From positions 154,250-218,249 of the forward strand of contig NW_005201240.1 in assembly GCF_000372725.1 (NCBI RefSeq): DNA of 64,000 bases. The letters run 5' to 3'. The notes beneath the pieces are model-generated. The model had not been told where the DNA came from, did no database searches, and was given only the letters and a program-made list of their open reading frames with translations. The position numbers and the translations under genes are program-made. Numbering within the stretch: position 1 is the stretch's first letter; each line of letters starts with the position of its first letter. This document shows, one piece after another, positions 16,110-63,800 of the stretch. The DNA comes from Emiliania huxleyi CCMP1516. Its lineage: Eukaryota.

Positions 16110-18620
16110 ATGGTCCTCTGTGCGGCGGACGTCGACCGGCTGCGGCGCTACGCGACGCGCCGGCCCGCGCAGTCGCGTGAGGCCGCTGAGGCCGAGGTCC
16201 AGGCCGAGACGGAGAGGATCTGGCGCGAGCGCGAGGCCGCCGAGCTGCGTCGAGACCCGACCTTTGCGCAGATCCCGCGCTTCCACCTCAAGCGCTCTCA
16301 CGCCCCGCGCACGAGCGCCCACCGGGGCGGCGGCGGCGGTGGCGCGCGCGCGAGTGCCGCCAGCTCTGCCGACGACCAGCGGCGCGCGCTCGAGGAGGGC
16401 GTCGGCAAGCTCGCTCGCCGGCGGCTGCGCGAGCACATGCTGTCGCTCATGCTTGAGCCGGCGGAGCTGGACGAGTGCTGGCGGCTGCTGCGCGCGCACG
16501 CGTCGCCGCCCGCGTCGCCGCTCGACGAGCGCATCGACTACACCGGCTTCTGCCGCGTTGCGGACGCCATGCCCGCGCGGCTCGGCCGGCACTTTTTCGG
16601 CGCCGAGCACTTTTTGCGCTTCCCGAATGACCCGTGGGGGCGGGTGTCGATCGTACACTACTTTTGCTGGCTGCGCAGCAAGACCGCGATCCTGCGCACG
16701 CGGATCGAGTTCTCGATCTACGACCACTCCACCGATGGCACGCTTGGCGAGCGGGAGCGGGAGCCGCGGCGAGTGCGCAGATTTCTTGTTGCGGCTGATG
16801 CAGCTCCTTGTTGACAGGCGAGCGAGAGCTGGAGCAGTGGGTGTCGGACCTGCTGCCGCAGCTGCCGGCGCTGCGCGAGCTACGCGAGGAGTTCTTCCCC
16901 TTCTACAAGGCGACGAGAGACAGCCGAGAGACAGCCGAGAGACAGCCGAGAGACAGCCGAGAGACAACCGAGAGACAACCGAGAGACAACCGAGAGACAG
17001 CCGAGCTGCGCGAGGAGCTCTCCTCACCTGTGTGCAAGGTGACTGCCGTGCGAAAGTTCTTCTTCTTCCTCGACCCGCGCCGGCGCGGCCGCATGTCGCC
17101 ACCACCCCCAATGCTCTCCTCTGCGAGATCACCCGAGATTGCCCGAGACTAGGCGAGGCCGCATCTCGCTGCAAAAGATGCTGTCCTCGCCGATCATGCA
17201 CGAACTGCTCGAGCTGCGCAGAGGCGAGGCTTGCCGAGATGGGCCGAGATGGGTCGGCCGAGGGGGAGGGTGGCCGAGGGTGGCCGAGGGTGGCCGAGGG
17301 TGCTTCTCACGAGTCTGGTGGCTGTGCAGGCGACTTGGGCCAGGAGGAGCTGCGCCAGAACTGGTTCTCGCTTGAGTGCGAGACGCTGCACTGCAGGGCT
17401 GCATCGGCCAGAGGACGTGTCGAGGTGATGCCGATGCCGTGTGTTTCGTAGGTACGCAGAGATGCTCTACTCGGACTACCTCGAGCTCGACGCGGACCAG
17501 AACGGCATGCTCTCTGTCGGCGAGCTCATGCGCTTCCGCGGCGGCGCGCCGCCAGGAGGAGGGCTGACAGCGCCGTTCGTGCAGCGGGTCTTCCAGGATT
17601 GCCACCACGCACCACACACCGCACTTGCACCTCGGAGTCACTCGGAGTCACCTCGGAGTCACCTCGGAGTCCTCGTGGGTGATCTCGACCTGATCTCGAC
17701 CTGATCTCGACCTGATCTCGACCTGATCTCGACCTGATCTCGACCTGCAGGAGTGCCACACGTACCGCACCAAGAGCGACGACGGCGACACCAGAGCAAG
17801 CTCGACCGCAAGCCGTGGGCGGCGCCTCTTCACAGCGCCGGCCGTGAACAGGCGTCGCGCAGAGCGAGCTCGACTACAAGTCGTACCTCGACTTTGTGCT
17901 CGCGCACTCGTACAAGGGCACGCCCGAGGCGCTCACCTACTTCTTCAAGCTGCTCGACCTGCGCCGTGCAGGCCGGCCGCTCGGGCTGGACGCCGCCTGC
18001 ACTCCTTCCGCGCTGCATGGCGTGAGACTGTGTACTAGGCCGGCTGCTCGGGCTGGACCTCGCCTACTTCTTCCGCGCGGTCCTCGAGAAGTTTGACGAG
18101 CTGGGTGAGGAGCCGAACTGCCTGGTGGCGGACGTGCAGGCGTCGACCCGGACCACGACCATCACCCATGACCCTGACCATGACCCTCACCCCCCCTCAC
18201 CCCCACCCCCACCCCCACCCCCACCCCCACCCTCACCCTCACCTGCCTTTGACCTTCAGGACGAGATCTTCGACATGGTGAAGCCGGCAGACCCGCGCTA
18301 CATCACCCTGCAGGACCTCATCAACTGCAGGCCGCACCCGATGCGTTTCTCCTCCGCTCCGCAAATCTCGCCCTCAGGCGCCCCTCCCCCCTCGCAGGGT
18401 CGGGGATACCATCGTCGGCATGCTCACCGACGCGCACGCCTTTTACCAGCACGACCGGCGCGAGGAGCTCATGCCACACGACGGGGAGGGGACGGGCGAG
18501 GGGATGGCGGGGGAGGGGATGGCGGGGGAGGGCGAGGCGGAGAGCAGCGGCGATACCAGTGCTGGCCAGCCGCAGCGGGAGGCGGGGGGGCCTGCGCCGG
18601 CGGCGGTAGCATTCGGTTGA
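16110..18620 (+). CDS. PPP2R3C: PP2A regulatory subunit B''-gamma (PPP2R3C / TONNEAU2-like), multi-exon
   Basis: IPRF, RIEFSIYD, TAVRKFFFFLDP, NWFS, LDADQNGMLS, RVFQECHTY, DYKSYLDFVLA and DEIFDMVKPADPRYITLQDL occur in the expected order. Confidence 0.93.
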
Positions 18621-19084
18621 TGCGCATTGCGTCGCGTGGCGTGCCAAGTGCATATATTTTGCTTCTCTCGCTCCCCGCACTCTGGAGTCAGAGATCCACG
18701 GCTCACGCCTCAGTCACGGGACTCACTCGGGAGCTCGGCGGCTCTCTCTCAAAAGTGTCTCAAGAGACAAAGTCAAAGACCAATTGCTACATGCACAACC
18801 GCCCAAGTAGAGAGCCTCACACTCAAGACACTAGACAGAAGACACAAAAGTGAGAGCAATGTTTTTGACTTTGACTCTTGGGGGGGCGCGGGGGTGAGTA
18901 TAAAGTATACCGAACGCCTCCATGAGCAGCAGCTCGAGCCGCACGCGGGAGAGCTCGAGCAGCTCGGCGGCGGGCACGGCGAGCAGCACGCTGCGCTTCT
19001 GGTAGCGGCCTTTGAGCGCTTTGATGCGGACGGGGGGCGGGCGGCGGCGTCGCCCGCGGCCGCGGCGGGGCGGGGCGGGCGCAG

Positions 19085-21000: not shown

Positions 21001-21129
21001 TCCATACTCCAAAATGCTCGCGCAACGCTGTCAGTCTGCACGCGCAGCAGCTCTCCGGGGTCATGCTCCATGGCCCAGGGCTATCTGCTACACTGCTGTG
21101 TGCTGTGTGGCTGCTGTGTGCTCACCTTT

Positions 21130-23178
21130 AGAATCACAAAACTTTGACAACGGATCACGGTCACACGCGCCATTCCGCATTCCCGCGAACTCCCCCTCAA
21201 TCGCTCTCCCCTGCATACCCGCCAAGCAAGCGGCTTTGTCGCCACTTTTCGTCTGGTGCCTCTCGCGCCTCTCGTGGAGCTGCACACAGCCCTGCGAGCT
21301 GCACAGCCCGGGCGCACTTCTGCAGCGCTCACGGAAGGGCAAACAGCCCGTACGCCTCCTCCTCGCTGTCGTCCCCCTCGCTCTCCCCAAAGGCCAGTCC
21401 GCCCACGCCGATCGCCCCCAGCCCGCCAACCGCCCCCAGCCCGCCCCCGCCCGCCGCCCCGCCCCCGACGCGCAAGCGCGAGATGAGGGCAGAGAGCGTC
21501 GTCGCAAGGCGCTGCCTGCCCCGGCAGGTGTCCCGGACGGAGCCCAGCGCGCGCAGCTCGTGCTCGCGCCGCCGCGCCTAATCTCGGGCGATCTCGATCT
21601 CGAGCGATCTCGACGTCCTCTCGGCGTGCTCTCGGGGCCTCACGCGCCGCGTGCTGGTCACAAAAGGTTTGCAGGTGCGCAGTCAGCTCGGGCGGAGGCA
21701 TCCTCTCGCCCTGCAGCGGCGAGCGCCTCGCCATGCAGGAGAGCATCGCCCCGCCCGCGAGCCGCCTGCGGTGAGGCGAGGGTGAAAGGTCGGGCAGCCT
21801 CCTCGCCACACACACAAGGCAGGGCAGGGGCCAGGCTGCGACCAGCTGGGCTGCGACTCCCGACTCCACGTCTAAAGAAAGGAGCTGGGCATGAAAAGTG
21901 CAAGGCTCGCTCATCTCGCCTCCATCTTGGCTCATCTCGGCTGCATCTCGCCTCGTCTGCCCGACCGCAGGAAGGAGCTCGGCCGCCAACTCGGGAAAGT
22001 CGAGGGGCGGCTCCGGAGTCGAGAGGCTCTGCAGCACCAGCACGGTGCCTGCGAGAGGGCCTCGAGGGTGATTGCTACACCGATGCATTCGCGAATACGG
22101 CGCGCGGCGCAACCGGCACGCGGCCTTTGGAGAGAGGCCGCGTCAGCACGCTGTATCTCGGCTGTATCTCGGCGATCTCTCGGCGATCTCTCGGCGGCCT
22201 TCGGAGTGAGGCCTCATCAGCACGCCCACCCGCCCGTTGTGTGACCAGGTGCCTGCAGGAGCCGGTCCGAGAAGGCTTCACAGACGCCCGCCCGCCTCCT
22301 CCCCTCCCCCCCCCCCCCCCCGTGTGGCGGGTCCAGGCGCCGTCAATGTCGGTGTAGAGCAGGCGATCCTCCACCACGTCGCTGCTACCGGCCGAGGGAA
22401 GCGGCCTGCACTGTCATCCACCGTCGATGAGTTCATCATCAATGAATGAGGTGAGCGCGCCGAGGGAAGCGGGCCTGCACTGGCACACCCACCCTCGCGA
22501 CTCGGACGCGCGGGAGAACTGGAAGGCGCCGTCCGCATAGTAGGTGTGCTCCTGTGATGCATCATCGACGAGATCACCAGTCACTCATGAGACGCGCCGC
22601 CCGCGTAGTAGGCTGTGCTCCTCTCCCCACGGCGTGAGGAAGGTGCCGTCCATCCACTCTGGCTGCCTCCGGAGCAGCCGCAGCCTCGGGCAGCGCCGCA
22701 TCGCCTCGAGGACGACGACGTAGCCCACGCACTCGCAAAAGGTCAGGTGCAGCTCCTAGACAGGCCGGGACACGTCGGGGACAGATCGTGGTCGCCGCTC
22801 GCAAACGGCGAGGTGCTCCTCGATCGCGGGGCAGCCGGCCACAACGAGTCTGACGCCGTTGTTCGTGACTCGCGCCGCGCCCGTGAGGTCGAGCAGCGAC
22901 AGCTGCGGCAGCCCCGCCACCGCGGAGAGGTGCGCGTCGCCGATCGGCACCCGGCGCAGCCGCAGCTCGCGCAGGCTGCTCAGTTGCCGGAGCGAGGGGC
23001 AGAGGAGGAGCGGCAGCTTACCCAAGGATAGCTCGGTGGCGGAGAGGCAGCGCTCCCGCTGGTCGCCGACTGCGGAACGCAGGGCGGCGCACGAGCAAGC
23101 GCAGTGCGCCCAGTCGGAGTGCGTGCAGTGCGCGAGCAGGAGGGCGAGCAGGTCCGGCGACAGGTCGAGCAGTTCCAT
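21130..23178 (-). CDS. F-box / leucine-rich-repeat protein, multi-exon (3' end uncertain)
   Basis: MELLDLSPDLLALLLAHC...CACSCAALR (F-box-like), then LRELRLRRVPIGDAHL, LSLLDLTGAARVTNNGV and GCPAIE|ELHLTFC (Cys-containing LRR). Confidence 0.7.
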
Positions 23179-23326
23179 GAGTTGGCTGGCGGGGACGAGT
23201 CCGGCTGGCCGGCCGGCTGCGCTGTGCTGGGCCGGCCCAATAAAATTCTGGCAGCAGAAAAAGAAAGTCCGGCGCCGAACTTTCCGAAGAAAGCCTCCCG
23301 GGTCTCTCTCTCTCGCGCGCCCATAT

Positions 23327-23548
23327 ATGCGGCCCACGTCTCGCCGCCTCTGCGACTTCCACGACCCCACGCGCCCTCCGCTGACGGCGGGCGAGCGGCT
23401 GGGAAACTTTGTCCACCGCGTCGCGGCGGGCGGGCTCATCGCGCTCACCCTCGCCGGCCTCGGCTACATTGGGCTCGCGTGCGTCGAGGTCTTTGGCAAG
23501 CACAGGCGGAGAAAGCTCGAGGCGTCGGCGGCGGCGCAGCCGCGATGA
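23327..23548 (+). CDS. Small single-pass membrane protein, COX14-like (73 aa)
   Basis: ERLGNFVHRVAAGGLIALTLAGLGYIGLACVEVFGKHRRRK: HR before a TM helix and a basic tail. Divergent from the F-box gene across ~150 bp. Confidence 0.5.
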   Translation: MRPTSRRLCDFHDPTRPPLTAGERLGNFVHRVAAGGLIALTLAGLGYIGLACVEVFGKHRRRKLEASAAAQPR

Positions 23549-24586: not shown

Positions 24587-26942
24587 TGTGTGTGTTTGTG
24601 TGTGTGCTCGCTCCTCGTTGGGCGTGCATCGCTCGAGCGGTGCGTGGCTGTCGGCGGAGCGGTTGAGCGCCCGGATGGTACAGCGGAGCGCCTGCGGGAA
24701 GGCTGTGCAAGAAGGGTCCGAGACGGCCCCCCCGTCTGCGCAGAGGACGGGGCGGGCGACAGCAGCGCCTCGGCGAGCCACGCGGTGCGGTGGTCGGGGT
24801 GGTACACGGCGCGGTGCGGCGTCCCTGCGGGGGGAAGGCTCCGAGGAGGTGCCGAGAAGGCTCCTCGGTGCGAAGTGGGGGGGTCCGCACGGCGCTGGTG
24901 CGGCGCTCCTCCGACGAGATGGCGGAGGAGGGCGCCGAAGGGCGAGTTGAGCGGGCAGCCCGGCTTGAGGAGGGTGTAGCGGCGCGGGTAGCGGCGGAAG
25001 ACGACGGTGGTGAGCGCGTTCTGCTCGAACGGCCACTTGAAGGACCAGGTCGGGTTGCCGACCGGCCAGATCCATTCCTTCACTCGTAATTGTCAATGAT
25101 GAATTCTCAATGAGTAATTAACGGCTGCCGCCCGGCCAGATCCACTCCTCGATCGCTCGCAGGATGCCCGCGCCGGCGATCGGGGCGCCCGCGAGCAGGA
25201 GCACGCCAGAGTTTGCGAGGCCTGCGAGAGGAAGAGAGGAAGCCCCGGGTCAAGAAGAGGACGACTGGTGGCGGGAGGACGGCCGGGCTTGCGCGTGCCG
25301 GCCCTTGTATCGCGGCGCAGCTTCTGCGGTGGGAACTCCTGAGAGGAGAAGGGCAGGATGACAAGAGTGGGGCGACAGCATCGTCATACGCAGCTCCTGC
25401 GGCGGGGACGCCTCCGCCGCAGCGATCCACCGCTCGCCGCGAAGCAGGCCGGTCGCCTCGGGCAGAGGGAGGAAGCCGTAGATCAGGGTGCAACGGCAAG
25501 CGACGGGAGTGCGATAGCCAGAGCCGGTGCCTCGGCTGCCACACCTGTGCTATACTCCACTGAACTCCGCCGCTCACCGCCCTGTGCTGTCTGTACCACG
25601 CTACGATCACTCGCCTCGAGCAGAGGCGGCAGCGGCTGCCACACCTCGGTGACAAAGACGTCCGAGTCGATGTACGCCAGGTGGGCGTGCCGGCGGAGCA
25701 GGTAGCGGATCGCGGCGAGCTTAGCCCACGGCGGACCGCGGGGAGGGAAGGGGCCGAGGCGGTGGTCGGCGGGCAGCCCTACTCGCAACCCTTCTCTGGT
25801 GTGTGCGATGCCACCTGCCCAGTCTCGGCCCAGTCTCGGCCCAGTCTCGGCCCCAGTCTCGGCCCCGTCTCGCCTGGGCAGACGGGGTCGCGGTTGGTGT
25901 ACTGCTGCATCCCCTCCCTCCACGCCCACTTCGGCTCGGATCGCTGGCTCGGCTCGAGGGCGTCGTTCCAGTCCGCCTGTGGACGTGTCGTGGGCCGTGT
26001 CGTGGGCCGTGTCGTGGGCCGTGTCGTGGGCCGTGTCGTGGGCCGTGTCGTGGGCCGTGTCGTGGGCCGTGTCGTGGGCCGTGTCGTGGACGTGTCGTGG
26101 GACGTGTCGCGGCTCGAGGGCGGCGTCCCCGGCCCGCCTCGGTCACGCCGATGTGCAGGTGCGGGCACGGGTTCTCGAGGTAGAAGCGGTAGCCGTGCAG
26201 CTGCGCGTAGATGTGGTTCGTGACGAGCGCGAGCTGGAAAGTGCCCATCTTCTCCGTCCGCGACTGCAGCACCTCCTCGGGCGTCCCCTTGCCCTCGACA
26301 CCTGGAAGGAAGGTTCCGAGAAGGCTCGTGGAAGGCTCCGGCACCTCCTCGGGCGTCCCCTTTGCCCTCGACACCGGCGTTGCCGTTCGGGGCCGGCCCG
26401 CCGCCGTGTGCAGCGGTGGGACGCCACCTCTCGGTTAGCACGCTGCGCGGGAGGCCCCACTCTTCCGGAGAGCGAAGCGTCGTCCCGCCAACCTCGTACG
26501 CAAACGGTGGCCGCGAGTCAACCATCAGGATCGCCACGTCCAGCGCCGCCGCCGCCTCGCCGCCGCCGCCACTGCTGCCGCCGCCACTGCTGCCGCCGCT
26601 GCTACCGCTGCCGCCGCCGCCGCTGCTGTTGCCGGCGCTGCTGGCTCCCGCCTCGGCCGGCCGCGGCGGGCGGTACCAGCACTCTTGCTCCTTCATGAGC
26701 CAGCGTGTGCCAAGCACGCCATCCAGCTTGTTCTTGATGATCTTGTCGATGTCGGCGCCGTGCAGAGACCGTGCCTGGAATAGAGAGAGCGCCCGCAGGC
26801 CCTGCGCCGTCTCGAGGTCCGGCTTGCCGCGAACGTTGGCGGGCGGGCTGCGCAGGAAGTCGGGCGTGAGCGCCGGCGTGTAGCGGTCGGCTGGCCTGCT
26901 GAGGTACCAGTCGCCCTGCGCGAGGTCGATCGCGCGTGGCAT
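23893..26942 (-). CDS. GT34-like (GMA12/MNN10) glycosyltransferase with C-terminal PAN/apple-like Cys module, multi-exon
   Basis: NHIYAQLHGYRF, PPWAKLAAIRYLL, YIDSDVF (DxD), WPFEQNAL. C-terminal CCGLCNADEACAGWTF...CVL. Confidence 0.72.
24403..24606. repeat. (TG)n/(TGCG)n microsatellite, intronic
   Basis: Directly visible. Confidence 0.97.
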
Positions 26943-47958: not shown

Positions 47959-48259
47959 TTGGCGTTGTCGTGAGAGCACGTGGGCTCTATTTCGATGGCG
48001 TGGACCGGCACAAGGCGTTGTTGTCCGTGCAACTGTACCCTGCCGCAGTCAGCTGCTGTGTAGAGCTCTACCAGCGAAAAAGGAGAATTTTAGTATAAAA
48101 GGAGAATTATGGGGACGTGAATTCCGGCAAGGTTTTTGCTCGCCTTCCCTGGGACCCCGTGTTGCATGTCACTGTCATCACTGTGCGATTTCGGGGCCCG
48201 GTTGTGCGTTTACGTGAATTCCGGCCGTGACGAGAGAAGCTATAGATGCAGCTAACGGG

Positions 48260-51200
48260 GTGTCGCAGGAGGTGAGGCACGAGGACGCCCATGAGGACCG
48301 GTGGCCTGACCTACATCGAGAGGCTTCACCTATTATTCTCCTTCTCTCTCTCTCCTTCCCTCGCTCTCTCTCTCTCCCATTCCAGAGTGATGAATAGTCC
48401 GCCGTGTCCCCATATCCCTATATTCCCACACCCTGTGCAGTGGCACGTCGTTGACACCCAGACCCCTAATATTAGACATCTTGGGCACGTCACGCTTCCC
48501 CAACTCCCGTTGTGCAAGTTTGGCACGTCATAGTCTCTGACTGCTTTCGTGGGGCCGCCGCGCCGCGAGACAGTCGACCTCTCTACTGTTGTGACACCAC
48601 AACTCGGCGCAGCTGGCGTCTTTCCCCCCACCGGTGTGACACCACACCTTCGTACTTTGAATACTCTCTACAAACATGTCTTCCTCGGCTGAGGAGGCCC
48701 GCGACACTGCGGGCAATCTATCTCCCGCGACCAAGCCGCAGGACCGCGTACGACTCAACATACACGTGCTGGGCACCGATGATTCGGGTTCAGATGACCA
48801 TCTCTCGAGCGAGAGACGAGGGACGCCTCACGAGACTCCAGAGGGCCTAGACCGGGGCGATACCACCCGGTCAGACCACCCTGATCACCTCTACACCACG
48901 TTGGAGCGTACCGAGCCCAAGGACGACACCGATGCGCTGGACAAGCCATCGTCGCCTGGCTCCGCCGAGGTCAGGGCTACGCCAGCTGGAATGCCTTCTG
49001 CCAGGCTGCCGGCGAGCCCTCCTTCGGCGGAAGCCTTCGAACGTCTCGACGTCTGATGTTTGCGAACCGTGCGACGGCTGTTCCATGGATATGCCAAATG
49101 CGTCGCGATGCAGCCTCCACCCCTGGGTGTGCCGAAACGTTCCTACGTAGTGCCACACTCCCCAGCTGCCATTCATTGCCGCGCCCCTCCCCGGGGGAAT
49201 GGTCATGTTTGTGTCGCAGGAGGTGAGGCACGAGGACGCCCATGAGGACCGGTGGCCTGACCTACATCGAGAGGCTTCACCTATTATTCTCCTTCTCTCT
49301 CTCTCCTTCCCTCGCTCTCTCTCTCTCCCATTCCAGAGTGATGAATAGTCCGCCGTGTCCCCATATCCCTATATTCCCACACCCTGTGCAGTGGCACGTC
49401 GTTGACACCCAGACCCCTAATATTAGACATCTTGGGCACGTCACGCTTCCCCAACTCCCGTTGTGCAAGTTTGGCACGTCATAGTCTCTGACTGCTTTCG
49501 TGGGGCCGCCGCGCCGCGAGACAGTCGACCTCTCTACTGTTGTGACACCACAACTCGGCGCAGCTGGCGTCTTTCCCCCCACCGGTGTGACACCACACCT
49601 TCGTACTTTGAATACTCTCTACAAACATGTCTTCCTCGGCTGAGGAGGCCCGCGACACTGCGGGCAATCTATCTCCCGCGACCAAGCCGCAGGACCGCGT
49701 ACGACTCAACATACACGTGCTGGGCACCGATGATTCGGGTTCAGATGACCATCTCTCGAGCGAGAGACGAGGGACGCCTCACGAGACTCCAGAGGGCCTA
49801 GACCGGGGCGATACCACCCGGTCAGACCACCCTGATCACCTCTACACCACGTTGGAGCGTACCGAGCCCAAGGACGACACCGATGCGCTGGACAAGCCAT
49901 CGTCGCCTGGCTCCGCCGAGGTCAGGGCTACGCCAGCTGGAATGCCTTCTGCCAGGCTGCCGGCGAGCCCTCCTTCGGCGGAAGCCTTCGAACGTCTCGA
50001 CGTCTGATGTTTGCGAACCGTGCGACGGCTGTTCCATGGATATGCCAAATGCGTCGCGATGCAGCCTCCACCCCTGGGTGTGCCGAAACGTTCCTACGTA
50101 GTGCCACACTCCCCAGCTGCCATTCATTGCCGCGCCCCTCCCCGGGGGAATGGTCATGTTTGTGTCGCAGGAGGTGAGGCACGAGGACGCCCATGAGGAC
50201 CGGTGGCCTGACCTACATCGAGAGGCTTCACCTATTATTCTCCTTCTCTCTCTCTCCTTCCCTCGCTCTCTCTCTCTCCCATTCCAGAGTGATGAATAGT
50301 CCGCCGTGTCCCCATATCCCTATATTCCCACACCCTGTGCAGTGGCACGTCGTTGACACCCAGACCCCTAATATTAGACATCTTGGGCACGTCACGCTTC
50401 CCCAACTCCCGTTGTGCAAGTTTGGCACGTCATAGTCTCTGACTGCTTTCGTGGGGCCGCCGCGCCGCGAGACAGTCGACCTCTCTACTGTTGTGACACC
50501 ACAACTCGGCGCAGCTGGCGTCTTTCCCCCCACCGGTGTGACACCACACCTTCGTACTTTGAATACTCTCTACAAACATGTCTTCCTCGGCTGAGGAGGC
50601 CCGCGACACTGCGGGCAATCTATCTCCCGCGACCAAGCCGCAGGACCGCGTACGACTCAACATACACGTGCTGGGCACCGATGATTCGGGTTCAGATGAC
50701 CATCTCTCGAGCGAGAGACGAGGGACGCCTCACGAGACTCCAGAGGGCCTAGACCGGGGCGATACCACCCGGTCAGACCACCCTGATCACCTCTACACCA
50801 CGTTGGAGCGTACCGAGCCCAAGGACGACACCGATGCGCTGGACAAGCCATCGTCGCCTGGCTCCGCCGAGGTCAGGGCTACGCCAGCTGGAATGCCTTC
50901 TGCCAGGCTGCCGGCGAGCCCTCCTTCGGCGGAAGCCTTCGAACGTCTCGACGTCTGATGTTTGCGAACCGTGCGACGGCTGTTCCATGGATATGCCAAA
51001 TGCGTCGCGATGCAGCCTCCACCCCTGGGTGTGCCGAAACGTTCCTACGTAGTGCCACACTCCCCAGCTGCCATTCATTGCCGCGCCCCTCCCCGGGGGA
51101 ATGGTCATGTTTGTGTCGCAGGAGGTGAGGCACGAGGACGCCCATGAGGACCGGTGGCCTGACCTACATCGAGAGGCTTCACCTATTATTCTCCTTCTCT

Positions 51201-51744
51201 CTCTCTCCTTCCCTCGCTCTCTCTCTCTCCCATTCCAGAGTGATGAATAGTCCGCCGTGTCCCCATATCCCTATATTCCCACACCCTGTGCAGTGGCACG
51301 TCGTTGACACCCAGACCCCTAATATTAGACATCTTGGGCACGTCACGCTTCCCCAACTCCCGTTGTGCAAGTTTGGCACGTCATAGTCTCTGACTGCTTT
51401 CGTGGGGCCGCCGCGCCGCGAGACAGTCGACCTCTCTACTGTTGTGACACCACAACTCGGCGCAGCTGGCGTCTTTCCCCCCACCGGTGTGACACCACAC
51501 CTTCGTACTTTGAATACTCTCTACAAACATGTCTTCCTCGGCTGAGGAGGCCCGCGACACTGCGGGCAATCTATCTCCCGCGACCAAGCCGCAGGACCGC
51601 GTACGACTCAACATACACGTGCTGGGCACCGATGATTCGGGTTCAGATGACCATCTCTCGAGCGAGAGACGAGGGACGCCTCACGAGACTCCAGAGGGCC
51701 TAGACCGGGGCGATACCACCCGGTCAGACCACCCTGATCACCTC
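48260..51744. repeat. 951-bp tandem array, ~3.7 apparently identical copies
   Basis: Units start at 48260, 49211, 50162 and 51113. The ORF track repeats with period 951. Confidence 0.97.
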
Positions 51745-52435
51745 CACACGGGGGCAGCCGAGTTGGCGCCTGGACGCCGCTCGAGGCGACGCCCCTGCGC
51801 CCTCCCGGCTTTGCGACCCTCCCGGCTGGCGTACTCCCGGGGAGCAGCCCTCCCGGCTGGCCGTGGGTGCGAGGAATCGCAGGCTGGGTCGTGCACTCCG
51901 GCAGCCCCTCCTGGCCTCGCCCCTGCCTCCCGCAGCCTGACCGAATCCCACGGGTCCACTTGACGGTGTGGTTTCCGACCCCCCCGGGTGGTCCACCCGC
52001 CCCACGACTATTATCCTATCTCTCCGGGGGCCCTGTGGGGGGGAAGGGTGCGTAAGACAGGGCGTGGAATGGCGGGGCCGGGGGTGTCGTGCCTGTTTTT
52101 AATTTTAATAGTCGCCCCAGCCGCCGCCGCCCTTGCCGCGCCCGCCCGCCCTTGCCGCGCCCGCCCTCGCCGCCCTTGCCGCGCCCGCCCTTGCCGCGCC
52201 CGCCCTCGCCGCCGCCGGGCGGCGGCCTTTGCGCGTTAAGAATTCTTCTGAAAAACGGCGTTTTGGCCGAGGGGGGGGGGCCTACATTCATTGAGAGGTC
52301 TCGTCATTCGAAGCCTGCTGAAGCCTCACCTTTGATTGTCACCACCTAACAGGCGTCGCCTTTGCTGTGTCGCGTCCTCCGCGTAGCCAGCCAACCATCC
52401 ACATCCACCAGCACTCACCCTCCTCACCTCGCGTC

Positions 52436-52535: not shown

Positions 52536-54807
52536 GTCTGCCCCACCCTAATGGTAACGGGCAGGGTGATCCAGGGGGGCCCCGCCGTGGTAAACCCCGC
52601 CTTGGCCATACATATGGTGGCGGCCAATTGCCTCATTCCCGTGGGGGTGATCCTCTACACATGGTTAGGGGGCTTAAAGGCCACTTTTCTCGCCTCGTGA
52701 ATCCAAACCTCGGGCAACAGGATAAGCCTCTTCGTTTTTATAGGGGGGGCCACCCCCCCCCCCCCCACCCACACACCACCACCACACACCACCACCACCA
52801 CTCCCCGCCCAAATTCCCCCCTCCCCCAGCCGCCCCGCCCCGCCCCGGCGCCGCCCACGCCCAACCCCCTCGCCATCCCCACCCGCAGGTACGTCTACGC
52901 CGTGCCGGGCGACATCGAGTGCACGTCCGCAACGGAGAAGCAGTGCAACGCGCTCGGCTCGGCGGCGCTGCTGTGGGAGCGGCTCCGCTTCCTCAACTAC
53001 CTCCCTGCCAAGACCGCGGGGATGACGTTCCCAGATGGCGCCTACGTGCCGACCGCGGACGATCCGGGACCGGGCAACTTTGAGAAACTCACGTACACCG
53101 AGAAGGACTACCACCACGGCCCCGTCAACGGCAACCGCGGCGGCTCGTACCTCACCATGCTCTCCGAGGACGGCCTCAGCTTCGGCGTCGTCAACATCGT
53201 CGGCAACTTCGGCACCGTCTTCGTCGACCAGTCCTACTGGCAGTCCGCCATCGCCGCGCGCCCCTCGTCTGCGCACCGTGGCTACCTGCTCGGAGGCCTC
53301 GTCTGGTTCACCATCCCCATGTCGCTCGCCACCGCGCTCGGCCTCTCGTCGCTCGCGCTCAACGTCAAGATGCCCGCCGACGAGGCCGCCGACGGCCTCG
53401 CGCCGCCCGCCGCCGCCATCGTCCTGCTCGGCCAGGGCGGCGGCATCATGATCATCATCATGCTCTTCATGGCGCGCGCTTCGACCCATCCACGTCCCCC
53501 CTTCCCCCTTCGCCCTTCCCCACACCGCCCCCCCTCGCCGCGCAGGCCATCACCTCGACCGGCTCCGCCGAGTGCATCGCCGTCGCCTCCCTCTTCGCGT
53601 ACGACATCTACCGCAAGTACATCAACCCCGAGTGCACCGGCGCCCAGCTGCTCAAGGTGTCGCGCCTTGTCGTCGTCGGCTACGGCATCGTCTGCGGCCT
53701 CTTCGGCTACTTCCTCTACGGCGTGGGCGTCGGCCTCGGCTGGGTCTACAACTTTATGGGCAACCCCGCCGCCCCCACCGCTATCCAGTCAGACAGCCCA
53801 CCCTGCATCCCGCGCCCTCTCGCCCGCTCACCCGTCGCTCACCCGGGCTGTGCCGCACGGACACGCGCTCAGGCACCATGATCGGCTCCGCCGTCATCCC
53901 CGTCTCGTGCTGCCTCTGCACGCGCTACATGACCAAGAACGGCGCCATCGCGGGCGCGTGGGGCGGCATGATCCTCGCCCTCGTCTCGTGGATGTCGGTC
54001 GCCGCCTCGCGCTGCACCAACGGCGACGACCCCGACGACCTCGCAGAGGGAGTGGACTGCGATACGGGTGCGACGCGACCACTCCCCACCGCCACGCGGC
54101 CGCCACGCCGCCACGCCGCCAGCTTGTCGAGCTCACTCCCCTCTGTGCGTCGTCCGCAGGCAAGCTCAACGTCGACACCCTCGGCAACATCAACGCGCAG
54201 ACCGCCGGCTCCGTCGTCGCGCTCTGCGTCTCGGGCATCATCGCCTTCCTCGTCGCGAGCATCGAGTACAAGATGGGCACGGAGCAGCCCTTCGAGTGGG
54301 AGAAAATGCGCGAGGGCATCAAGCGCGTCGAGCAGGCGAAACCGCACCTCCCCCCCCCCCCCCCCCCTTCCCGCCTCCCCAAAACTTCGCCTCCCGCGCG
54401 GCGCCCATTCATCCCCACCCCGCCCCGGGCAGAACGTGGCAGAGGCCCCTCAGTAGGGCCCCCCCTCACACGACACCCCTCCTCCCGCCGCGCCTTCCCC
54501 TCCGCAGGAGGCGGACGACGTCCCCGAGTACGAGATGACCTCCGAGTACCTCGACCCGGCCGCAAAGTACGTCTTCAAGTATGGCGTCGGCTACTCGGTC
54601 TTCCTCATCTTCGTCTGGCCGCTCGCCGTCATCGCGTGGGGCGTCTTCGACAAGGCCAACTACACGCTCTGGGCCTCGGTCGCCTTCTGCTGGGGCTACA
54701 TCGCCTCGGGCTTCATTGTCGTGCTTCCCATCTACGAGTCGTGGGGCTCGATCTCCAACGTGCTGACGTGCAAGAAGGCCACGCCGGCGACGAAGGAGCA
54801 GGCTTGA
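52536..54807 (+). CDS. DUR3: Urea active transporter DUR3 (sodium:solute symporter family); 5' part lost in the gap
   Basis: GVILYTWLGGLKATFLAS, GSYLTMLSEDGLSFGVVNIVGNFGTVFVDQSYWQSAIAARP, GYLLGGLVWFTIP, YDIYRKYINP, LPIYES. Confidence 0.93.
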
Positions 54808-56225: not shown

Positions 56226-57927
56226 ATGGCCGCTTCTCAAGCTTCAGTTCCTCCATCGCCGAGGCTGGAGGACTATGAGATTGGACCGCTCCTCGGACGA
56301 GGCGCTTGCGGCGAGGTCCGGCTCGCCTCGCGGCGGCCGGACGCGGCAGCGAGTTGCGGCGCGGTGCAGCGGTGCGCCGTCAAGGTGATACCGCAAGGCA
56401 AGCCTTCATCTGCACGGGACGTCATGTGTGAGGTGGAGATGCTTCGGCGGTGCTCGCACCCTCACATCCTGCGGCTTCTCTCTGTCTGCGAGGACGGGCC
56501 CAACCTTTGCCTGCTCCTCGAGTTTTGCGCGGGTCCGGACCTGCAGCGGCTGCTCGACCTGCGTGGTGCGCTCCTTGAGGATGAGGCGAAGCGGATCTTT
56601 TCGCAGGTCTGCGCCGCACTCTGCCACCTCCGCGAGCGGCGCATCGTCCATCGCGACGTCAAGCCGGCCAACGTAGCGCTCAAAGCTGCACTGCCCGACG
56701 ACCGCAGCTCGTCGCTCTCGCGCTGCATCACAAAACTGCTCGACTTTGGCTTCGCTCGCGTGATCGATGTCGCGGTGGCCTCCCCCAGGGCGAGGAGGTG
56801 GGGCAAGCGGCGCGGCGACCGCTCCGTGCACGGAATCGATTCCGGGTCAAAGCACGGCGGCTCCAACTACGGCGGCTCGAAGCACGGCGGCTCCAACTAT
56901 GGCGGCTCGAAGCACGGCGGATCCGAGTGCGGATCCACGCACGGCGGCGAGACGACGGTGGAGCTCGAGATGGACGGCTCGCTCGTGTTTGACGGCAGCA
57001 CGCACTCGGCCGCGTGGCGGGGAGATTCCCCGAGATTACCCGAGATTACCCGAGATTGCCCGAGATTAGGCAGCACGCACTCGGCCGCGTGGCGGCGCAC
57101 AACCTACTTGCCGAGGAGCGTGCCGAGCAGCCCGACGGGGCGCCGCACCGTCGGCGAGGTGAGGATGACGCCGCTCGGGACGCGCCACTGGGCGGAGCCG
57201 CGGCTGCAGGCGGCGGGCCTGGGCGGCGGCGTCGGCGCGGACGGGCGGCTCGTCATGAGCCTCGACGAGGTGGGCCGTCTCCCTCCCCGAGATCATATCT
57301 CCCCCATATCTCCCTCATATCTCGTCCTACACGCGAGGAGGCACAGGCCGAGATCATATCTCCCCCATATCTCCCTCATATCTCGTCCTACACGCGAGGA
57401 GGCACAGGCCGAGATCATATCTCCCCCATATCTCCCTCATATCTCGATGAGGTGGGCCGTCTCCCTCCCCGCCTGGCCCAGCTGCCCTGGCGCGAGGCGG
57501 GACCCGCACCGTGCGGGCTGTAGGCGCTCCAGCTCGACACCTTCTCCCTCTCGCGGCTGCTGCGCTACATGCTCACAGGCGCGGTGGGGAGGCGAGGCGG
57601 ACCGGAGATCAAGGGAGCCGGAGCTGCGCCGCGCCCCCGCTGGTAGGCGCGCCGCCCAACCAGACCATCATGGAGGCGCTCGAGGCGCAGGGCATGGCGG
57701 GCTGTGGCTGTGCGGCCGCCCTGGTCGGCAGGCGGCCGCCGGCGAGGCGCGTGGTGCGCGAGCTGAGCGAGGTGAGCCCCGAGGCGCGGGAGGTGCTCGG
57801 CGCCCTGTCCCGCGGGGCGGCCGAGCGCGCCTCCGTCTTCGAGGCGTGCCGACACCGCTGGATTGCGGACGAGAGCGTGCACGGGCGCGCGCGGGGGTAT
57901 ACGAGCGACGAAGGAGCGGAGAAGTAG
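56226..57927 (+). CDS. Ser/Thr protein kinase (CAMK-like), multi-exon
   Basis: LGRGACGEV, AVKVI, HPHILRL, VHRDVKPAN, LDFG, GTRHWAEP, HRWI. Confidence 0.9.
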
Positions 57928-58135
57928 CAGAGCTTGGGTGCGATGGCGGTGGCTCCTACTCCCGTCCGTGCCCAGTGCTCTGAAGTCGCGAAATTCTTTC
58001 GTGCATCATGTCCGAAGCCTCAACCGTTGAATTCTTCATTTTAGAGCGCGCAGGTGCCGCTCGACTGTAGAGCTCTAGTGCGAACTCGCTCCCGTCCCTA
58101 GCTGCGCAACCCTGAGCCGAGCTCCAGTTTGCTCA

Positions 58136-60492
58136 ATGCCGCAGCACACCCTCTTCATCGCCGGCCCACGCCGCGCGCCCGCGGTGAGCGAGGCTGTCCG
58201 CGGATTGGCCGGCGCGCGCTCGGCAGACGACTGGCGCGTCGCCTTTGCGTGCGGCGAGGCCAGCGCTGCAGCGTGGCAGCCGGCGAGCGAGTGGCCGGCC
58301 GAGGCTGCGTCGTCGGCGGGGGTGGATGCGCGGGGTATGATCGCGAGGATCGCGCGCCTCCTCCAGCTCGTCCCCGCCGGCTCCTCGCTCGTGGTGAGGT
58401 GGGCCTTCGAGGGCGACGCGCCGACCGACGAGGCGCTCGGGTTGGGCGTGCACGCGGCGGTCAGCTTCTCCGAGGGCCTGGGCATCAAGGACTGCCGCAC
58501 GCTGGTAGTCGAGTGGCTCGACGACGGCCGCGCCGCGGACTCGGCCGCGCTCGACGTGTGGGCCGACGTGCTGCGCGCGGAGAGGGTGGCAGTCGCTGCA
58601 GACGCACCCGAAGAGGAGGCGCCGGCGCAGTGTCACGCACCCGGCCGCCGCCCGCGTCGCACGGTCTCTGACGCGGCTCCCGCTCCCCCCTCTCCTCCTC
58701 GCCGCAGGCCGCCCTGCTGATCTCGGGCGCGCCTCTGGACGGCTCCGCCCTGGGCGAGGGTCGCGCAGAGGCGCCAGGGCGAGGGCCAGGGAGAGGGTCG
58801 CGCAGAGGCGGAGGAGGCGCGGCCGCGCAGAGCCCGGTCGCGCCGCGGGCTGGTTCGGTTGCCGCCGCCGCCGCTTCAACGAGCAGCTCGTCCGGCGCAC
58901 CAGGGCAGGCGCCAGGGCAGGCATCAGGGCTCGCCCTCGCTGCCGGTAGCGAGGGCGGCTTGCAGCACGGCGGAGGGAGCAGCGACGGGCGAGGGGCAAG
59001 CCCTCGCTCCCGGCTGCGCCGCGCCGGCAGCAAGGAGCGGCCGCAGGAGCGGCAGGCGGCGGCGGGCGCCTCGCAGCCGCAAGCCGCCGCCGCCGCCGCC
59101 GCCGCCGCGCCCGCGCCGGGCGGGCGCACGGGCGCGGGGCCGTGCCTGCAGCGGGGTCAGAGCCTGGTCCGCGGCCAGAGCCTCGTGCAGGGCTGCGGCG
59201 GGACGAGGGGCGAGGCATGCCCAGGACACGTCCAGGACACGTCCGAGACACGCCCCTTCGGCGGCGGCCGGACGAGGGGCCAGGCGGCGGCGCGGAGAGG
59301 CGGGGAGGGCGGAGGGGTGGGTGGAGGAGGGGGAGAGGTGGGTCGAGGAGGGGGTCGAGGAGGCGGGGGGGAGGCGAGGCCAGCGGCGAGTCGGCGCGGC
59401 GCGGTTGTCTCGCGCGAGAGGCTGGCGGGGCTGCTGCGCGACGCGGTGGAGGAGGAGGCGCGGCGGAGCGGGCAGGCGGGCGGCGTGGACGGCGCGGACG
59501 GCGGCGGCGGGGCTGGCGCCGCGGCAGCGGGCGGGTGGGCGACGCTGCCCCCGCCGCAAGACGTGCCGCGTGTGGGCGGTGCGCATGTGGCGTACGAGAA
59601 CGAGGCCCAGGCAAAGGCGGTGGAGGCGCGGCTCCTCGTCGTCCTGCTCGCACCTCCCTCCCTCTCCTCTCCTCTCCTCCCTCTCCTCTCCTCTCCTCCC
59701 CCTCCCCCTCCTCGTCTCGCCAAACAGCGAGCGAGCGCAGCTTCTCGGCACTTTCCCGGCAGTTTCCCGGCACCTTCGCGGCACCTTCGACCGCAGGCGC
59801 GACTCAAGGCGCACACCCTCAAGCCAAAGGCTGAGCACGGCTCCATCCTCGCCCTGCTGCTGCCGGCGCTGTCCAGGACACGTCCATGACATGCCCGAGA
59901 CTTGTCCACAGGCTCCATCCTCGCCCTGCTGCTGCCGGCGCTGCCGTGCGCACGCGCCGGAGGGATGCCGCCCGAGCAAATCAGCCTGCAGCAGCCGCGC
60001 CGGACCGAGGCGCCGCCCGAGCAAGCGGCGGTTGGGCGGGGCGGTGCAAGCAGCAGCACGGGCGGTGCAAGCAGCAGCACGGGCGGCGCAGGCAGCGGCG
60101 TCGGCGCGGGCAGCGGCAGCGGCGTCAGCGCGGGCAGCGGCAGCGGCGTCGGCGGGTCATCGCCGCGCAACGACAGCTCCGAGCCGTCGGCAGCCCAGCC
60201 GGCCGTCCACGCCGACTTCGCCACGCACACCCTCGGCTTGGCGAGGAGGCTGGTGGCGGAGAAGGTGTGCGGCGGTCCCGCCGGAAGCGAGGAGCAGGGC
60301 GAGGCGGCGAGGTTGGCCGCCAGGCTGCAGAGCGCGCTTCACGCTCGCATGCGGCAGCGGCACACGCTGGGGGGGCAACGCCCGCCGCTTCGGAGCGCAT
60401 ACGACGCGGCCGAGGAGAGCCTCGCTGCCGTGTTTCGCGACGTGGTGCGAAAGGGGCTCGCAGCGCTCGAGTCGGAGCAGCACGCCCCGTGA
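58136..60492 (+). CDS. Hypothetical Gly/Ala-rich protein, multi-exon
   Basis: Successive plausible exons (ORF 58136.., LLRDAVEEE, YENEAQAK, HGSILALLLPAL, ORF ..60492) joined by typical local introns. Confidence 0.5.
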
Positions 60493-60868
60493 GCCTTGGA
60501 GTGTGGAGATATCACTTTTGAGTATTGAGAGTAGAGTGGGTCTCGTACTCTCGTCCAAACATAATATTAATATATAACAAAAGGTGATCGGCGTGTGTGT
60601 CAAGACGGGGCCCACCAATATCGCAGCGAACCGGAACGAGACACATCGGCGAGAGTTTCGGACTCGGGACTGCAGCGCGTGTACATCTTGCGTACTACTC
60701 TCACGGAGAGCGGGAGAGGGGAGTGGGCGCGGAGAGAGCAGCAGTGAGAGAGCTGTGGAGTCGCTGGAGGGAGGTGTCAGGTTAAAGAGAGAGAGCATGG
60801 GCAACAGAGCCGGGCTATGGACCTAGGCTTAGTCCTCAGAGCTACATGGGGACGGCCGCGCGAGACGG

Positions 60869-63800
60869 TCACTCCTCGGACTTGCCCGCCTGCTGCTCTT
60901 TCCACTTCTTGACCATCAGCTCGGTCTTGTCGCGCGGCGCGGGCACGTGCGCCTTGTACTCCATAGTGTACTCCCCCTTGCCCTGCGTCACGCCTCGCAG
61001 GTCGGACGAGAAGCCAAACATGCTCTCGAGCGGCACATCCGCGTCGATTGTGACGAACTCGGCGCCCTCCATGCTGTTGACCGTGCCCTTGCGCTGCGAG
61101 ACGAGCGCCACCGCGGTGCCCTGGAACTCGGCCGGCACCGCCACCTCCGTCGACATGAGCGGCTCCAGCAGCACCGGCTTCGCCGTCGCCATCGCCTGCT
61201 TGAAGGCGCCCTGCGCGGAGGGAAAGGAAGGGACGGGACGGGACGGGAAAGTGCGGCACACTTCTCCACTCACACGCTGCTAGGGCCAGGGCCGGGCAAC
61301 CCTCGCGTCTCCACACCTGCGCGGCGGCGCGGAAGGCCAGCTCGTTCGAGTCGACTGCGTGTGCAAGCCCGTCCTGCAGCACCACCCGCATCCCCATCAC
61401 CTGCGGGAGGCGCCAGCGACGTGTCGGGGACGTGTCGGGGCCATGCGCGCAGGACTCCTCGCAGGCCGTGTCACCGGCGAGCCCGTGAGAGTCCCCTTGA
61501 GCATCGCCTCGCGGAAGCCCTGTTCGCAGCTGCAGCCGTGAAGAGACGGTGCGCTGCTTCCTCGCGATTCGGATGGAGGGTGAAGGTGGCGGTGTGGTGC
61601 GGTGGCGTGTAGACGAGGGAACGGCAGCTGACAGCGGCGCCTTGTCGATCGCGGTGACGAACTCGGGCGGGATCATGTTGCCCACGAGCTGGTTATCGAA
61701 CTCGTACGCGCCCTGGCCGAGCGCGTCGGAGGAGATCGGCTCCACGTAGCCCTCCACCTGCTCTCGGTCAATCTCGGGTCATCTCGGGTAGCCCCGGGTA
61801 TCTCGACACCGCCTCGGGGTCCATCTGCACCCGCCCAAACTGGCCCGAGCCGCCGCTCTGCTTCTTGTGCGTGTAGGCAAACTTGGAGCGCGTCGACGCC
61901 GTCTCGCGGAAGGCAACCTTCGGGTTGCCCGTCGAGCACTCCACCCCGTACTCGCGCTTGAGCCGCTCCACGTAGATCTCGAGGTGGAGCTCGCCCATGC
62001 CCGAGATGATGGTCTGGCCCGACTCGTCGTCGGTGTGCACGCGGAAGGTCGGGTCCTCCTGGGCGGCATGGTTTGGAGGAGGTGTGAGACGAGGCTGAGA
62101 CGAGGCTGAGACGGGGTTCAGACGGGGTTCAGACGGGGTTCAGACGGGGTTCGGACGGGGTTCAGACGGGGTTCAGACGGGGTTCGGAGGAGCTCGCCCC
62201 GCTGCCGCGAGGGGCGGCGGGCGGCGCTCCTTGGTGAAGCGGCCGAGCGCCTTTGAGAAGTTTGGCGCGTTCTTGTCGGCAGGCACCAGCGCGAGCGAGA
62301 TGACCTGACGGACATGTCATGAACGTGTCCTGGACGTGTCCTGGACGGCACCAGTGCGAGCGAGCTGACCGGATCGGGGACAAACATCGACGTCATCGAC
62401 AGCTTCGTCTTGCCGTCGGTGAAGGTGGTGCCCGAGGCGCAGTCGACGCCGAACATGGCGACGATGTCGCCCGCGCCGACCGACTCGACGTCCTCCATCT
62501 CGTTGGCGTGCATGCGGACGAGCCGCGGGATGCGAACCTTGCGCCGGACCCGAGATTACCCGAGATTGTCCGAGATTATCCGAGATTTCCTGAGATTGCC
62601 CGAGATGGCGGGGGGGCGAACCTTGCGCCGGTCCGCCGCCATCGACTGGATCGTGTCGCCGCGGCCAACCTTGCCCTGGTAGATGCGCATGTACGTCAGC
62701 TGGCCGAACTTCCCCTCCTCGAGCTTGAAGGCGAGCCTATGGTCATGTCTCGGACGTGTCATGCACGTGTCCTCGACATGTCCCCTCCTCGAGCTTGAAG
62801 GCGAGCCTATGGTCATGTCTCGGACGTGTCATGCACGTGTCCTCGACATGTCCCCTCCTCGAGCTTGAAGGCGAGCCTATGGTCATGTCTCGGACGTGTC
62901 ATGCACGTGTCCTCGACATGTCCCCTCCTCCAGCTTGAAGGCGAGCCTATGGTCATGTCTCGGACGTGTCATGCACGTGTCCTCGACATGTCCCCTCCTC
63001 CAGCTTGAAGGCGAGCCTATGGTCATGTCTCGGACGTGTCATGCACGTGTCCTCGACATGTCCCCTCCTCCAGCTTGAAGGCGAGCCTATGGTCATGTCT
63101 CGGACGTGTCATGCACGTGTCCTCGACATGTCCCCTCCTCCAGCTTGAAGGCGAGTCCCGACGAACGGGTCCGACGACACACCCGTGAGCCCCACCTGCT
63201 CCTCGTCTTTGTCCAAGTCGAGCGCGCAGTTGGTCACCTCGGTCGGCGCCGGCAGGTAGCTCACCACGCCGTCCAGGAGCGGCTGCACGCCCTTGTTCTT
63301 GAAGGCGCTCCCCATGAAGACGGGCGTGATCGCATTCGCGATCGTCTGGCGCCGGATCGCGGCACGCAGCACCCCGAGCGGCGGCTCCTCCTCGGCGAGG
63401 TAGAACTCTGCTATCTCCTCGTCGGCGTCTGCGAGCTTCTCGAGCAGCTCCGCGCGCTTCTCCTCCATGGCGGCCTGCAGCCCGGCAGGAACCTCCCCCT
63501 CCTCCACCTCCTCCCCGCCAGGCCCGGAGAAGCGGAGGGCCCTGCGCTCCAGCAGGTCGACCACACCCTCGTGGTCGCCGCTCACGCCGATCGGGATCTG
63601 CATTGCCACCGCGTTGAGCCGCAGCTTATCGCGCAGCTGGCCGATCACCGCGTCTGCACGGCGGAGGATGGCCCGAGATGGCCCGAGATGGCCCGAGATG
63701 GCCCGAGATGGCCCGAGATGGCCCGAGATGGCCCGAGATGACCCAATCACTGCGTCTGTGCGGCGGGTGCGCGAGGGGTCGTCGAGGAGTATCTGGGAGG

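What the first reader, a model, noticed from the sequence alone, without database searches (positions are those of the whole stretch)
17597..63157. Repeated GA-AG introns whose donor is dictated by the duplicated exon
Seen: restoring the protein frame appears to need GA donors at five sites. These are PP2A B'' 17597-17750(+) (VFQ|ECH; intron GATTGCCAC vs exon GAGTGCCAC), F-box gene 22756-22818(-) and 22552-22620(-) (both followed by GAG-starting exons), EF-G 62059-62229(-) (RFTK|EDPT; the intron holds an in-frame stop) and EF-G 62737-63157(-) (FVG|LAFK). In four of the five the next exon also starts GA. Established: GA donors are very rare outside a few lineages such as dinoflagellates. Inference: the spliceosome here may need little more than exonic (A)G plus an intron-initial G. 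That tolerance would make the duplication mechanism viable.
Basis: partly seen in the sequence, partly recalled or inferred. Interest (0 to 1): 0.72.

Follow-up and report, generated by a model that had tools for sequence, protein, structure and literature searches.

The report
Algal introns copy the next exon
In the bloom-forming alga Emiliania huxleyi, three introns with the rare GA start are backed by transcripts (a fourth likely), and an intron's first letters usually repeat the start of the next exon, likely because new introns form when a short repeat piece inserts and duplicates the gene sequence beside it.

Summary
The window is Emiliania (Gephyrocapsa) huxleyi. Four of the five GA-AG introns hold. 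EF-G 62059-62229 is spliced in 4 of 4 runs. Both F-box junctions are in transcript-derived proteins. The PP2A B'' junction rests on homologs only. The fifth (62737-63157) is spliced as stated, but its A is absent from an independent unspliced copy, so that donor is GC and matches its exon. Across 29 introns of four genes the donor dinucleotide equals the next exon's first two bases in 20 (permutation mean 9.8). GA donors precede 4 of 6 GA-starting exons and 0 of 23 others; no GG donor was seen. The clearest cases are a 16-40-nt copy of the next exon plus a short filler ending in YAG, and fillers recur between unlinked genes. Best reading: insertion with a long target-site-like duplication, donor from the copy, acceptor from the filler. 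GA donors (4%) are already published for this species, small introner families are tabulated for it, and dinoflagellates show the same GH/GH rule. The link to GA and the long copies was not found in print.

The parts
17597..17750 (+). PP2A B'' intron 6, GA-AG, phase 0 (VFQ|ECH); starts with a degenerate copy of the next exon, then two 11-nt satellite arrays
   Evidence: homology only, no reads laid
22756..22818 (-). F-box/LRR gene intron 1, GA-AG (AIE|ELH); short degenerate exon copy
22552..22620 (-). F-box gene intron 2, GA-AG (WGE|EHT); about 25-nt exon copy plus 42-nt filler
62059..62229 (-). mitochondrial EF-G intron, GA-AG (FTK|EDP); only a 5-nt boundary repeat, 11-nt satellite inside; mis-modelled in both CCMP1516 protein models
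62737..63157 (-). EF-G intron (FVG|LAF): six 70-nt units, each a 26-nt exon copy plus 44-nt filler ending TAG; GA in this assembly only through the single A at 63156, GC in L040
62305..62369 (-). EF-G intron, GT-AG, 23-nt copy of next exon plus 42-nt filler of the same family as 62737-62782
62538..62621 (-). EF-G intron, GT-AG, 16-nt exact repeat across both boundaries; position shared with Isochrysis-like relatives
22406..22474 (-). F-box intron 3, GC-AG, exon copy on both sides
22253..22340 (-). F-box intron 4, GC-AG, degenerate exon copy
16747..16817 (+). PP2A intron 1, GC-AG, 18-nt exon copy plus 53-nt filler; site uninterrupted in 16 of 16 informative intron-reading homologs
16910..17038 (+). 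PP2A intron 2, GC-AG, ends in a degenerate copy of the upstream exon; site also interrupted in 4 of 16 informative homologs
17083..17152 (+). PP2A intron 3, GC-AG, 17-nt exon copy plus CCGAGAT-family filler
17785..17851 (+). PP2A intron 7, GC-AG, about 30-nt degenerate exon copy (frame-inferred)
17972..18038 (+). PP2A intron 8, GC-AG, 30-40-nt exon copy
16110..18616 (+). PP2A regulatory subunit B'' gene, 11 exons, 527-aa open frame (end approximate)
   Evidence: homolog P0136 hits PDB PP2A B'' 4i5l at E 6.7e-20
22253..23178 (-). F-box/LRR gene, first five exons (3' end unresolved)
60869..64000 (-). mitochondrial EF-G gene, 3' part; runs off the window
59840..59911 (+). candidate intron of the same build (32-nt exact copy plus 40-nt filler of the EF-G filler family), GC donor; not validated
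56995..57069 (+). candidate intron in a kinase gene (26-nt exact copy plus CCGAGAT filler), GC donor; not validated

Best explanation
These are GA-AG introns of Emiliania huxleyi whose first bases repeat the start of the next exon, likely because each arose when a short repeat-like piece ending in AG was inserted into coding DNA and the flanking exon sequence was duplicated. Shown: the splice points of 19 introns, the GC/GT/GA donor set, the match to the next exon, the 16-40-nt copies and the shared filler families. Inferred steps: (1) an insertion leaves a long target-site-like duplication; (2) the upstream copy becomes the intron's 5' end, so the donor is whatever the exon began with, and the filler supplies the YAG acceptor; (3) the insertion survives only if it can be spliced out exactly, which would need a G before the cut, a G plus C/T/A after it and about 60-75 nt of length; GA donors would thus be the birth state of insertions at G|GA sites; (4) the copy then decays, satellites expand, and weak donors would drift to GC or GT. 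The exon G at -1 likely makes up for the lost +2 pairing with U1 snRNA (recalled knowledge of GC-AG introns; no snRNA was examined). The inserting enzyme is not identified; repair of a staggered break with repeat-derived filler or a non-autonomous introner are both open.
For: Joints in RNA-like contigs; transcript proteins. 29 introns: exon -1 G 28 of 29, next exon G 28 of 29, dinucleotide match 20 of 29, GA 4 of 6 versus 0 of 23 (Fisher 6e-4; 3e-3 if the window's A63156 is counted). Scored from +3 on, so not using the dinucleotide, 12 of 13 introns with an exon copy match against 7 of 16 without (before PP2A intron 5 was corrected by one base). 13 of 29 have a boundary copy above the 99th percentile of mismatched pairs; in 6 of the 10 with a next-exon copy the upstream exon does not end in AG. 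Fillers of four introns in two genes align at 79% mean column identity (the four were picked by eye, one is unvalidated); further families. Gain rather than ancestry: Isochrysis-like ORFs P0004, P0006, P0007, P0126 run through four EF-G intron sites unbroken; PP2A introns 1 and 3 are unbroken in 16 of 16 and 12 of 12 informative intron-reading homologs. Precedent: dinoflagellate GHNN TSD donors, GA enriched in young introns; an E. huxleyi 70-nt family listed as 'co-opt 5', carry 3''.
Against: Only 2 of the 4 GA introns carry a clearly long copy (scores 18.5 and 10; the others 6 and 3). Two introns with a copy of the upstream exon at their 3' end sit at positions shared with relatives (62538-62621; 16910-17038, 4 of 16), and the distant homolog P0193 breaks exactly at the PP2A GA site, so a copy does not prove recent birth. 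The filler motifs are also common satellites (59 CCGAGAT copies in the window), so family likeness may reflect later expansion. No terminal inverted repeats (longest exact match 3-7 nt in 19 introns). That the truncated homologs are genomic is inferred. Only four genes, three chosen because they hold GA donors; ten PP2A introns are frame- and homology-inferred.
Confidence: 0.62

Rival explanations
1. Pure tandem duplication of an exon segment holding AG|G gives both splice sites; filler and satellites grow later.
For: All four GA introns follow an exon ending AG; 22406-22474 and 62538-62621 have repeats on both sides; the genome is rich in tandem repeats; mechanism described in PMC3443670.
Against: 6 of 10 strong copies follow exons not ending in AG; exact 24-32-nt copies sit directly beside 32-49 nt of unrelated filler, and similar fillers recur in different genes.
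Confidence: 0.15
2. Old introns are rewritten in place: repair templated by spliced mRNA or cDNA, or slippage across a boundary, replaces one intron end by exon sequence, and only G-C/T/A starts survive.
For: Explains an intact YAG acceptor behind a copied donor, and fresh copies at shared positions (62538-62621; 16910-17038); P0193 breaks at the PP2A GA site.
Against: Several next-exon-copy introns are absent from relatives (EF-G FVG|LAF in four ORFs, PP2A introns 1 and 3); does not explain shared filler families.
Confidence: 0.13
3. The match is a by-product of a strong G|G splice consensus and GC-rich composition, with no link to origin.
For: GC is the commonest donor and GC the commonest exon start; PMC4028052 attributes GC donors to high GC content.
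Against: Permutation keeps both compositions and gives 9.8 against 20; copies reach 16-40 nt.
Confidence: 0.05
4. The GA junctions are artefacts of reverse-transcriptase template switching between direct repeats, or of assembly error.
For: True for one base: A63156 is missing from other copies. Direct repeats favour template switching (mentioned in PMC7072748).
Against: The joins restore frames conserved in other species, recur in four studies, end in YAG (27 of 29) or AAG, and GA was Sanger-checked in this species.
Confidence: 0.04

Closest known systems
E. huxleyi non-canonical donors (Feldmesser et al. 2014, PMC4028052)
   Same: Same species; GC 56%, GT 40%, GA 4% of 241 curated junctions, acceptor AG; supplementary legends note bases that fit either side of a junction.
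   Different: In the parts read, GC is attributed to genome composition; no link to the next exon, to duplication or to intron origin is drawn.
Dinoflagellate introner-like elements (Roy et al., bioRxiv 10.1101/2020.10.14.339549)
   Same: Donor recruited from the duplicated target (GHNN), acceptor carried by the element, GH at the next exon's start, no GG, GA in young introns.
   Different: There: fixed 3-8-nt TSDs and families with inverted repeats. Here: copies of 16-40 nt, no inverted repeats found, fillers built of 10-11-nt periodic motifs.
E. huxleyi Introner families in supplementary tables (PMC9860276; PMC12130899)
   Same: Five families, 37 or 70 nt, 653 copies; three families, one of 5 introns of about 70 nt with '10bp terminal direct repeats', 'co-opt 5' carry 3''.
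   Different: GA = 0 in all five families, TSD mostly '?', no discussion in the main-text passages searched. Whether these families are the fillers seen here could not be tested: no sequences were seen.
Daphnia pulex new introns from staggered break repair (PMC4202315)
   Same: Direct repeat of the adjacent exon at the far end of a new intron, filler insertion, internal repeats.
   Different: Repeats there are 4-12 bp; here longer, and they set a non-GT donor.
GA/GG donors of Eurytemora affinis and Oikopleura dioica (PMC7072748; PMC5714493 abstract only)
   Same: Frequent GA-AG introns with conserved upstream exon AG.
   Different: There a GA consensus with downstream A and a candidate U1 variant; E. 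affinis also uses GG, not seen here.

Membership tests
GA-AG spliceosomal intron | Excised from transcripts with GA first and AG last | tested here: met
   62059-62229; F-box pair at protein level; PP2A by homology only; 62737-63157 is GC in L040
GA-AG spliceosomal intron | Recognised by U1/U5/U6, branch point and lariat | not testable with these tools
   No genome held; no Rfam hit in the window; PMC11347168 found no high-confidence minor snRNAs in this species
Introner (transposon-derived intron family) | Sequence family shared by unlinked introns | tested here: inconclusive
   Four fillers at 79% column identity and other pairs above shuffles, but the motifs are also abundant satellites
Introner (transposon-derived intron family) | One splice site co-opted from a flanking direct repeat | tested here: met
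Introner (transposon-derived intron family) | Short target-site duplication of fixed length (3-8 nt) | tested here: not met
   Copies of 16-40 nt, variable; a fixed short TSD in older introns is not excluded
Introner (transposon-derived intron family) | Terminal inverted repeats (DNA-transposon type; not all families have them) | tested here: not met
   Longest exact match 3-7 nt in 19 of 19 introns examined
Introner (transposon-derived intron family) | Recent gain: absent in relatives or polymorphic between strains | tested here: inconclusive
   Absent at several sites, shared at others; homolog DNA not seen
Intron gain by tandem genomic duplication (AGGT model) | Both splice sites come from the duplicated segment | tested here: not met
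   Upstream exon does not end in AG in 6 of 10 strong copies; possible for the other 4
Intron gain by staggered double-strand break repair | Direct repeat of adjacent exon plus inserted filler | tested here: met
   the same footprint fits an element with a long TSD, so it does not separate the two

The most novel reading that the evidence does not exclude
E. huxleyi makes introns on a genome scale by inserting 40-50-nt modules of 10-11-nt periodic repeats with unusually long (16-40 nt) target duplications, by a route that is not a classical DNA transposase. Its GC-majority and GA donors are then simply the exon letters found at the insertion site. This would account for a third or more of its introns and repeat, independently, the dinoflagellate G|GH splicing rule.
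Probability: 0.3. Interest if true: 0.8.

Novelty: new variant of a known kind. Interest (0 to 1): 0.55.

Why it matters
Where new introns come from is a long-standing question, and few lineages keep a readable footprint. If the reading holds, a cultured, much-sequenced alga with many strains gives a direct population test of intron birth, and explains why its donors are mostly GC with some GA. It also matters in practice: both CCMP1516 EF-G models fail at the GA intron, and a one-base difference turns a GC donor into an apparent GA one.

Tried and rejected
No whole genome is held, so no genome-wide table or snRNA search. The run search listed no holder on record as RNA; the contigs used are guessed RNA. 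No reads were laid across the PP2A and F-box junctions. PP2A search among longer proteins found nothing at E 1e-15; single PP2A exons gave no Pfam or useful PDB hit. Rfam: 0 hits. A filler motif had 0 matches in viral contigs. Earlier findings: none. Of 80 metagenome loci only L040 was this species' DNA. One search is discarded (my coordinates were off); one search had PP2A intron 5 off by one, fixed; a notebook count of 5 of 10 is corrected to 6 of 10. The loose window scan was too noisy. The stricter one gave 28 hits at 853 YAG|G sites (32.8 per 1000; controls 3.9-20.8), 19 with G at -1; three of these have GG starts but look like shifted or low-complexity matches, so GG is not excluded. Rejected: CG-AG or CA-AG registers (donor not G); nearby GT/GC donors for four sites (3 or more codons away, against transcripts); reading the A63156 gap as only mis-laid mRNA (L040 is unspliced). 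Papers with nothing on the point in the passages searched: PMC10290126, PMC12480563, PMC2784329.
Full report
Identity. The largest EF-G exon (63160-63651) is 100% identical to P0001, named by its source a mitochondrial elongation factor of Emiliania huxleyi CCMP1516; transcript-derived P0002 and P0003 are 99% identical and Isochrysis galbana 74%. GC is 0.59-0.75 and 10-11-nt tandem arrays are common. No whole genome is held.

The five sites. Each interval begins GA and ends AG, and GA..AG is the only G..AG register among the positions over which the junction can slide. Each read-through meets a stop. EF-G 62059-62229 is skipped in 4 of 4 runs of 4 studies and P0002/P0003 read RFTK|EDPT; both CCMP1516 models, P0001 and P0130, go wrong exactly here. 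The F-box junctions are in P0121 and P0127, and unspliced P0128/P0129 show a GAR start in other copies. For PP2A B'' a ten-intron model gives a 527-aa frame whose homolog P0136 hits solved PP2A B'' subunits; P0136, P0141 and P0228 keep FQ|E. No reads were laid there, and a G|GT donor three codons upstream is frame-compatible, so this site is likely rather than shown.

The fifth site. 62737-63157 is skipped in 2 of 4 runs; in the other two the contigs break at the repeat and lack A63156. L040, an unspliced metagenome contig, differs from the window over about 1 kb by three substitutions, a 30-nt repeat-length change and that one A. Without it the intron is six exact 70-nt units and begins GC, like its exon. 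The A is an assembly error or a private allele; I cannot tell which.

The rule. I collected every intron I could place: 13 from read joints (16 joints were not shown), 2 from L040 against P0003, 4 from P0121, and 10 from the PP2A model. The F-box 3' end was left out because P0121 seems to retain intron there. In the 19 transcript-supported introns the exon ends in G in 19, the next exon begins with G in 18, and the donor equals the next exon's first two bases in 13 (permutation mean 5.8, p 0.00025; within genes p 0.005); GA donors precede 3 of 4 GA exons and 0 of 15 others. With all 29: donors GC 17, GT 8, GA 4, GG 0; -1 G 28; match 20 (mean 9.8, p 1e-5; within genes 3e-4); GA 4 of 6 against 0 of 23 (p 6e-4, or 3e-3 counting the window's A). 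These counts use the L040 allele at 63157. The three GG-starting exons have GC or GT donors, so the tolerated set looks like G|G-C/T/A, on small numbers.

Anatomy. 13 of 29 introns have a boundary copy above the 99th percentile of mismatched pairs: 10 copy the next exon at the 5' end, 4 copy the previous exon at the 3' end, one does both. The clearest are 16-40 nt of exon copy followed by 27-58 nt of filler ending in YAG, most 63-75 nt long in all (which includes ten unvalidated candidates). In 6 of the 10 the upstream exon does not end in AG, so the acceptor cannot come from the duplication. Fillers recur: those of 62737, 62305, 61401 and candidate 59840-59911 align at 79% mean column identity, and a CCGAGAT-based family joins 17083-17152 with candidates at 31224, 46190 and 56995. 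There are no terminal inverted repeats. Among the GA introns only 22552-22620 and 17597-17750 have a clearly long copy.

Age. Four Isochrysis-like ORFs that appear to come from genomic contigs (one of 13 kb) run unbroken through four EF-G intron sites, including FVG|LAF, and break at RKK|, the site of 62538-62621. Of 100 PP2A homologs, 47 passed 40% identity and score 150, and 29 of these end in unrelated tails as if reading into an intron; among the informative ones, intron 1 is unbroken in 16 of 16, intron 3 in 12 of 12, intron 2 broken in 4 of 16, and the GA site unbroken in 2, broken exactly in one distant protein (P0193) and two residues later in another. So next-exon copies tend to be lineage-specific, but copies also occur at shared sites. 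That these proteins are genomic is inferred, not seen.

Mechanism. I favour (0.62) insertion of a short repeat-derived piece ending in AG with a long duplication of the target. The upstream copy supplies the donor, so its second base is the exon's second base; exact removal is possible only where the cut falls in G|G-C/T/A and the insert is long enough. GA donors would be the birth state at G|GA sites. Candidate 25339-25411 (intron GC, exon copy GA) would fit later GA-to-GC change but is unvalidated. The role of -1 G in pairing with U1 is recalled knowledge, untested here. Rivals: pure tandem duplication (0.15), rewriting of old introns by mRNA-templated repair (0.13), compositional coincidence (0.05), artefact (0.04).

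What is known. PMC4028052 (passages, section 15 whole, supplements 1, 3, 6; figures and supplements 2, 4, 5, 7 not seen) reports GC 56%, GT 40%, GA 4% for this species. bioRxiv 10.1101/2020.10.14.339549 (parts 1-2 of 4; supplements not seen) describes the same GH donor and GH exon start in dinoflagellates, from short TSDs. PMC9860276 (passages and supplement rows, file cut when stored) lists five E. huxleyi families with no GA donors; PMC12130899 (one passage and supplement rows, files 13-14 not searched) lists three, one with 10-bp terminal direct repeats that co-opts the donor. PMC3443670, PMC4202315, PMC7072748 and PMC11347168 were read as passages; PMC5714493 as a listing with the start of its abstract. 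The 2013 genome paper is not held and its supplement may bear on novelty. Ten searches showed no paper linking E. huxleyi GA or GC donors to the next exon or to long duplications.

Verdict. It works like a TSD-co-opting introner but fails the short fixed TSD and inverted-repeat tests, so I do not file it as a classical one. New variant of a known kind; interest 0.55.

Noticed in passing
window 63654-63895 (-): This EF-G intron holds an internal copy of its acceptor and next exon start; run X2 shows a joint 63755->63896 that uses the internal AG.
   Followed up: no
window 62737-63157 (-): Each 70-nt unit carries its own TAG acceptor and GC donor, so stepwise or alternative splicing is possible; unit number may vary between strains (L040 ends inside the array).
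   Followed up: partly
window 5217-5279(-), 25339-25411(-), 25977-26137(-), 26302-26374(-), 31224-31320(-), 31995-32096(-), 32793-32867(-), 46190-46245(-): Further candidate copy-plus-filler introns in other genes; two differ from their exon copy at base 2 (GC vs GA, GT vs GC).
   Followed up: partly
window 57287-57446: 61-nt unit repeated 2.6 times with CCGAGAT and 11-nt subrepeats; may be another amplified intron unit in the kinase gene.
   Followed up: no
window about 48000-51800: A motif recurs every 951 nt four times (48337, 49288, 50239, 51190) and the region has almost no contig cover.
   Followed up: no
window 52889-54807 (+): Highly covered membrane-protein gene with four RNA-confirmed introns (GC, GC, GT, GC) and no long exon copies; looks like a DUR3 urea transporter (name recalled; Pfam scan of one exon was empty).
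   Followed up: partly
window 17376-17451 (+): The only one of 29 introns without G at -1 has a canonical GT donor.
   Followed up: partly
window 22125-22229 (-): The F-box gene's 3' part has an exon-copy repeat with no exact G..AG register, and two transcript proteins read through it; real structure unresolved.
   Followed up: partly
window 43109-43646 (-): Coding-like 69-nt repeat, eight copies, masked from the scan.
   Followed up: no
whole window: Most short tandem arrays have a 10- or 11-nt period, close to one helical turn, and occur in both orientations inside introns.
   Followed up: partly
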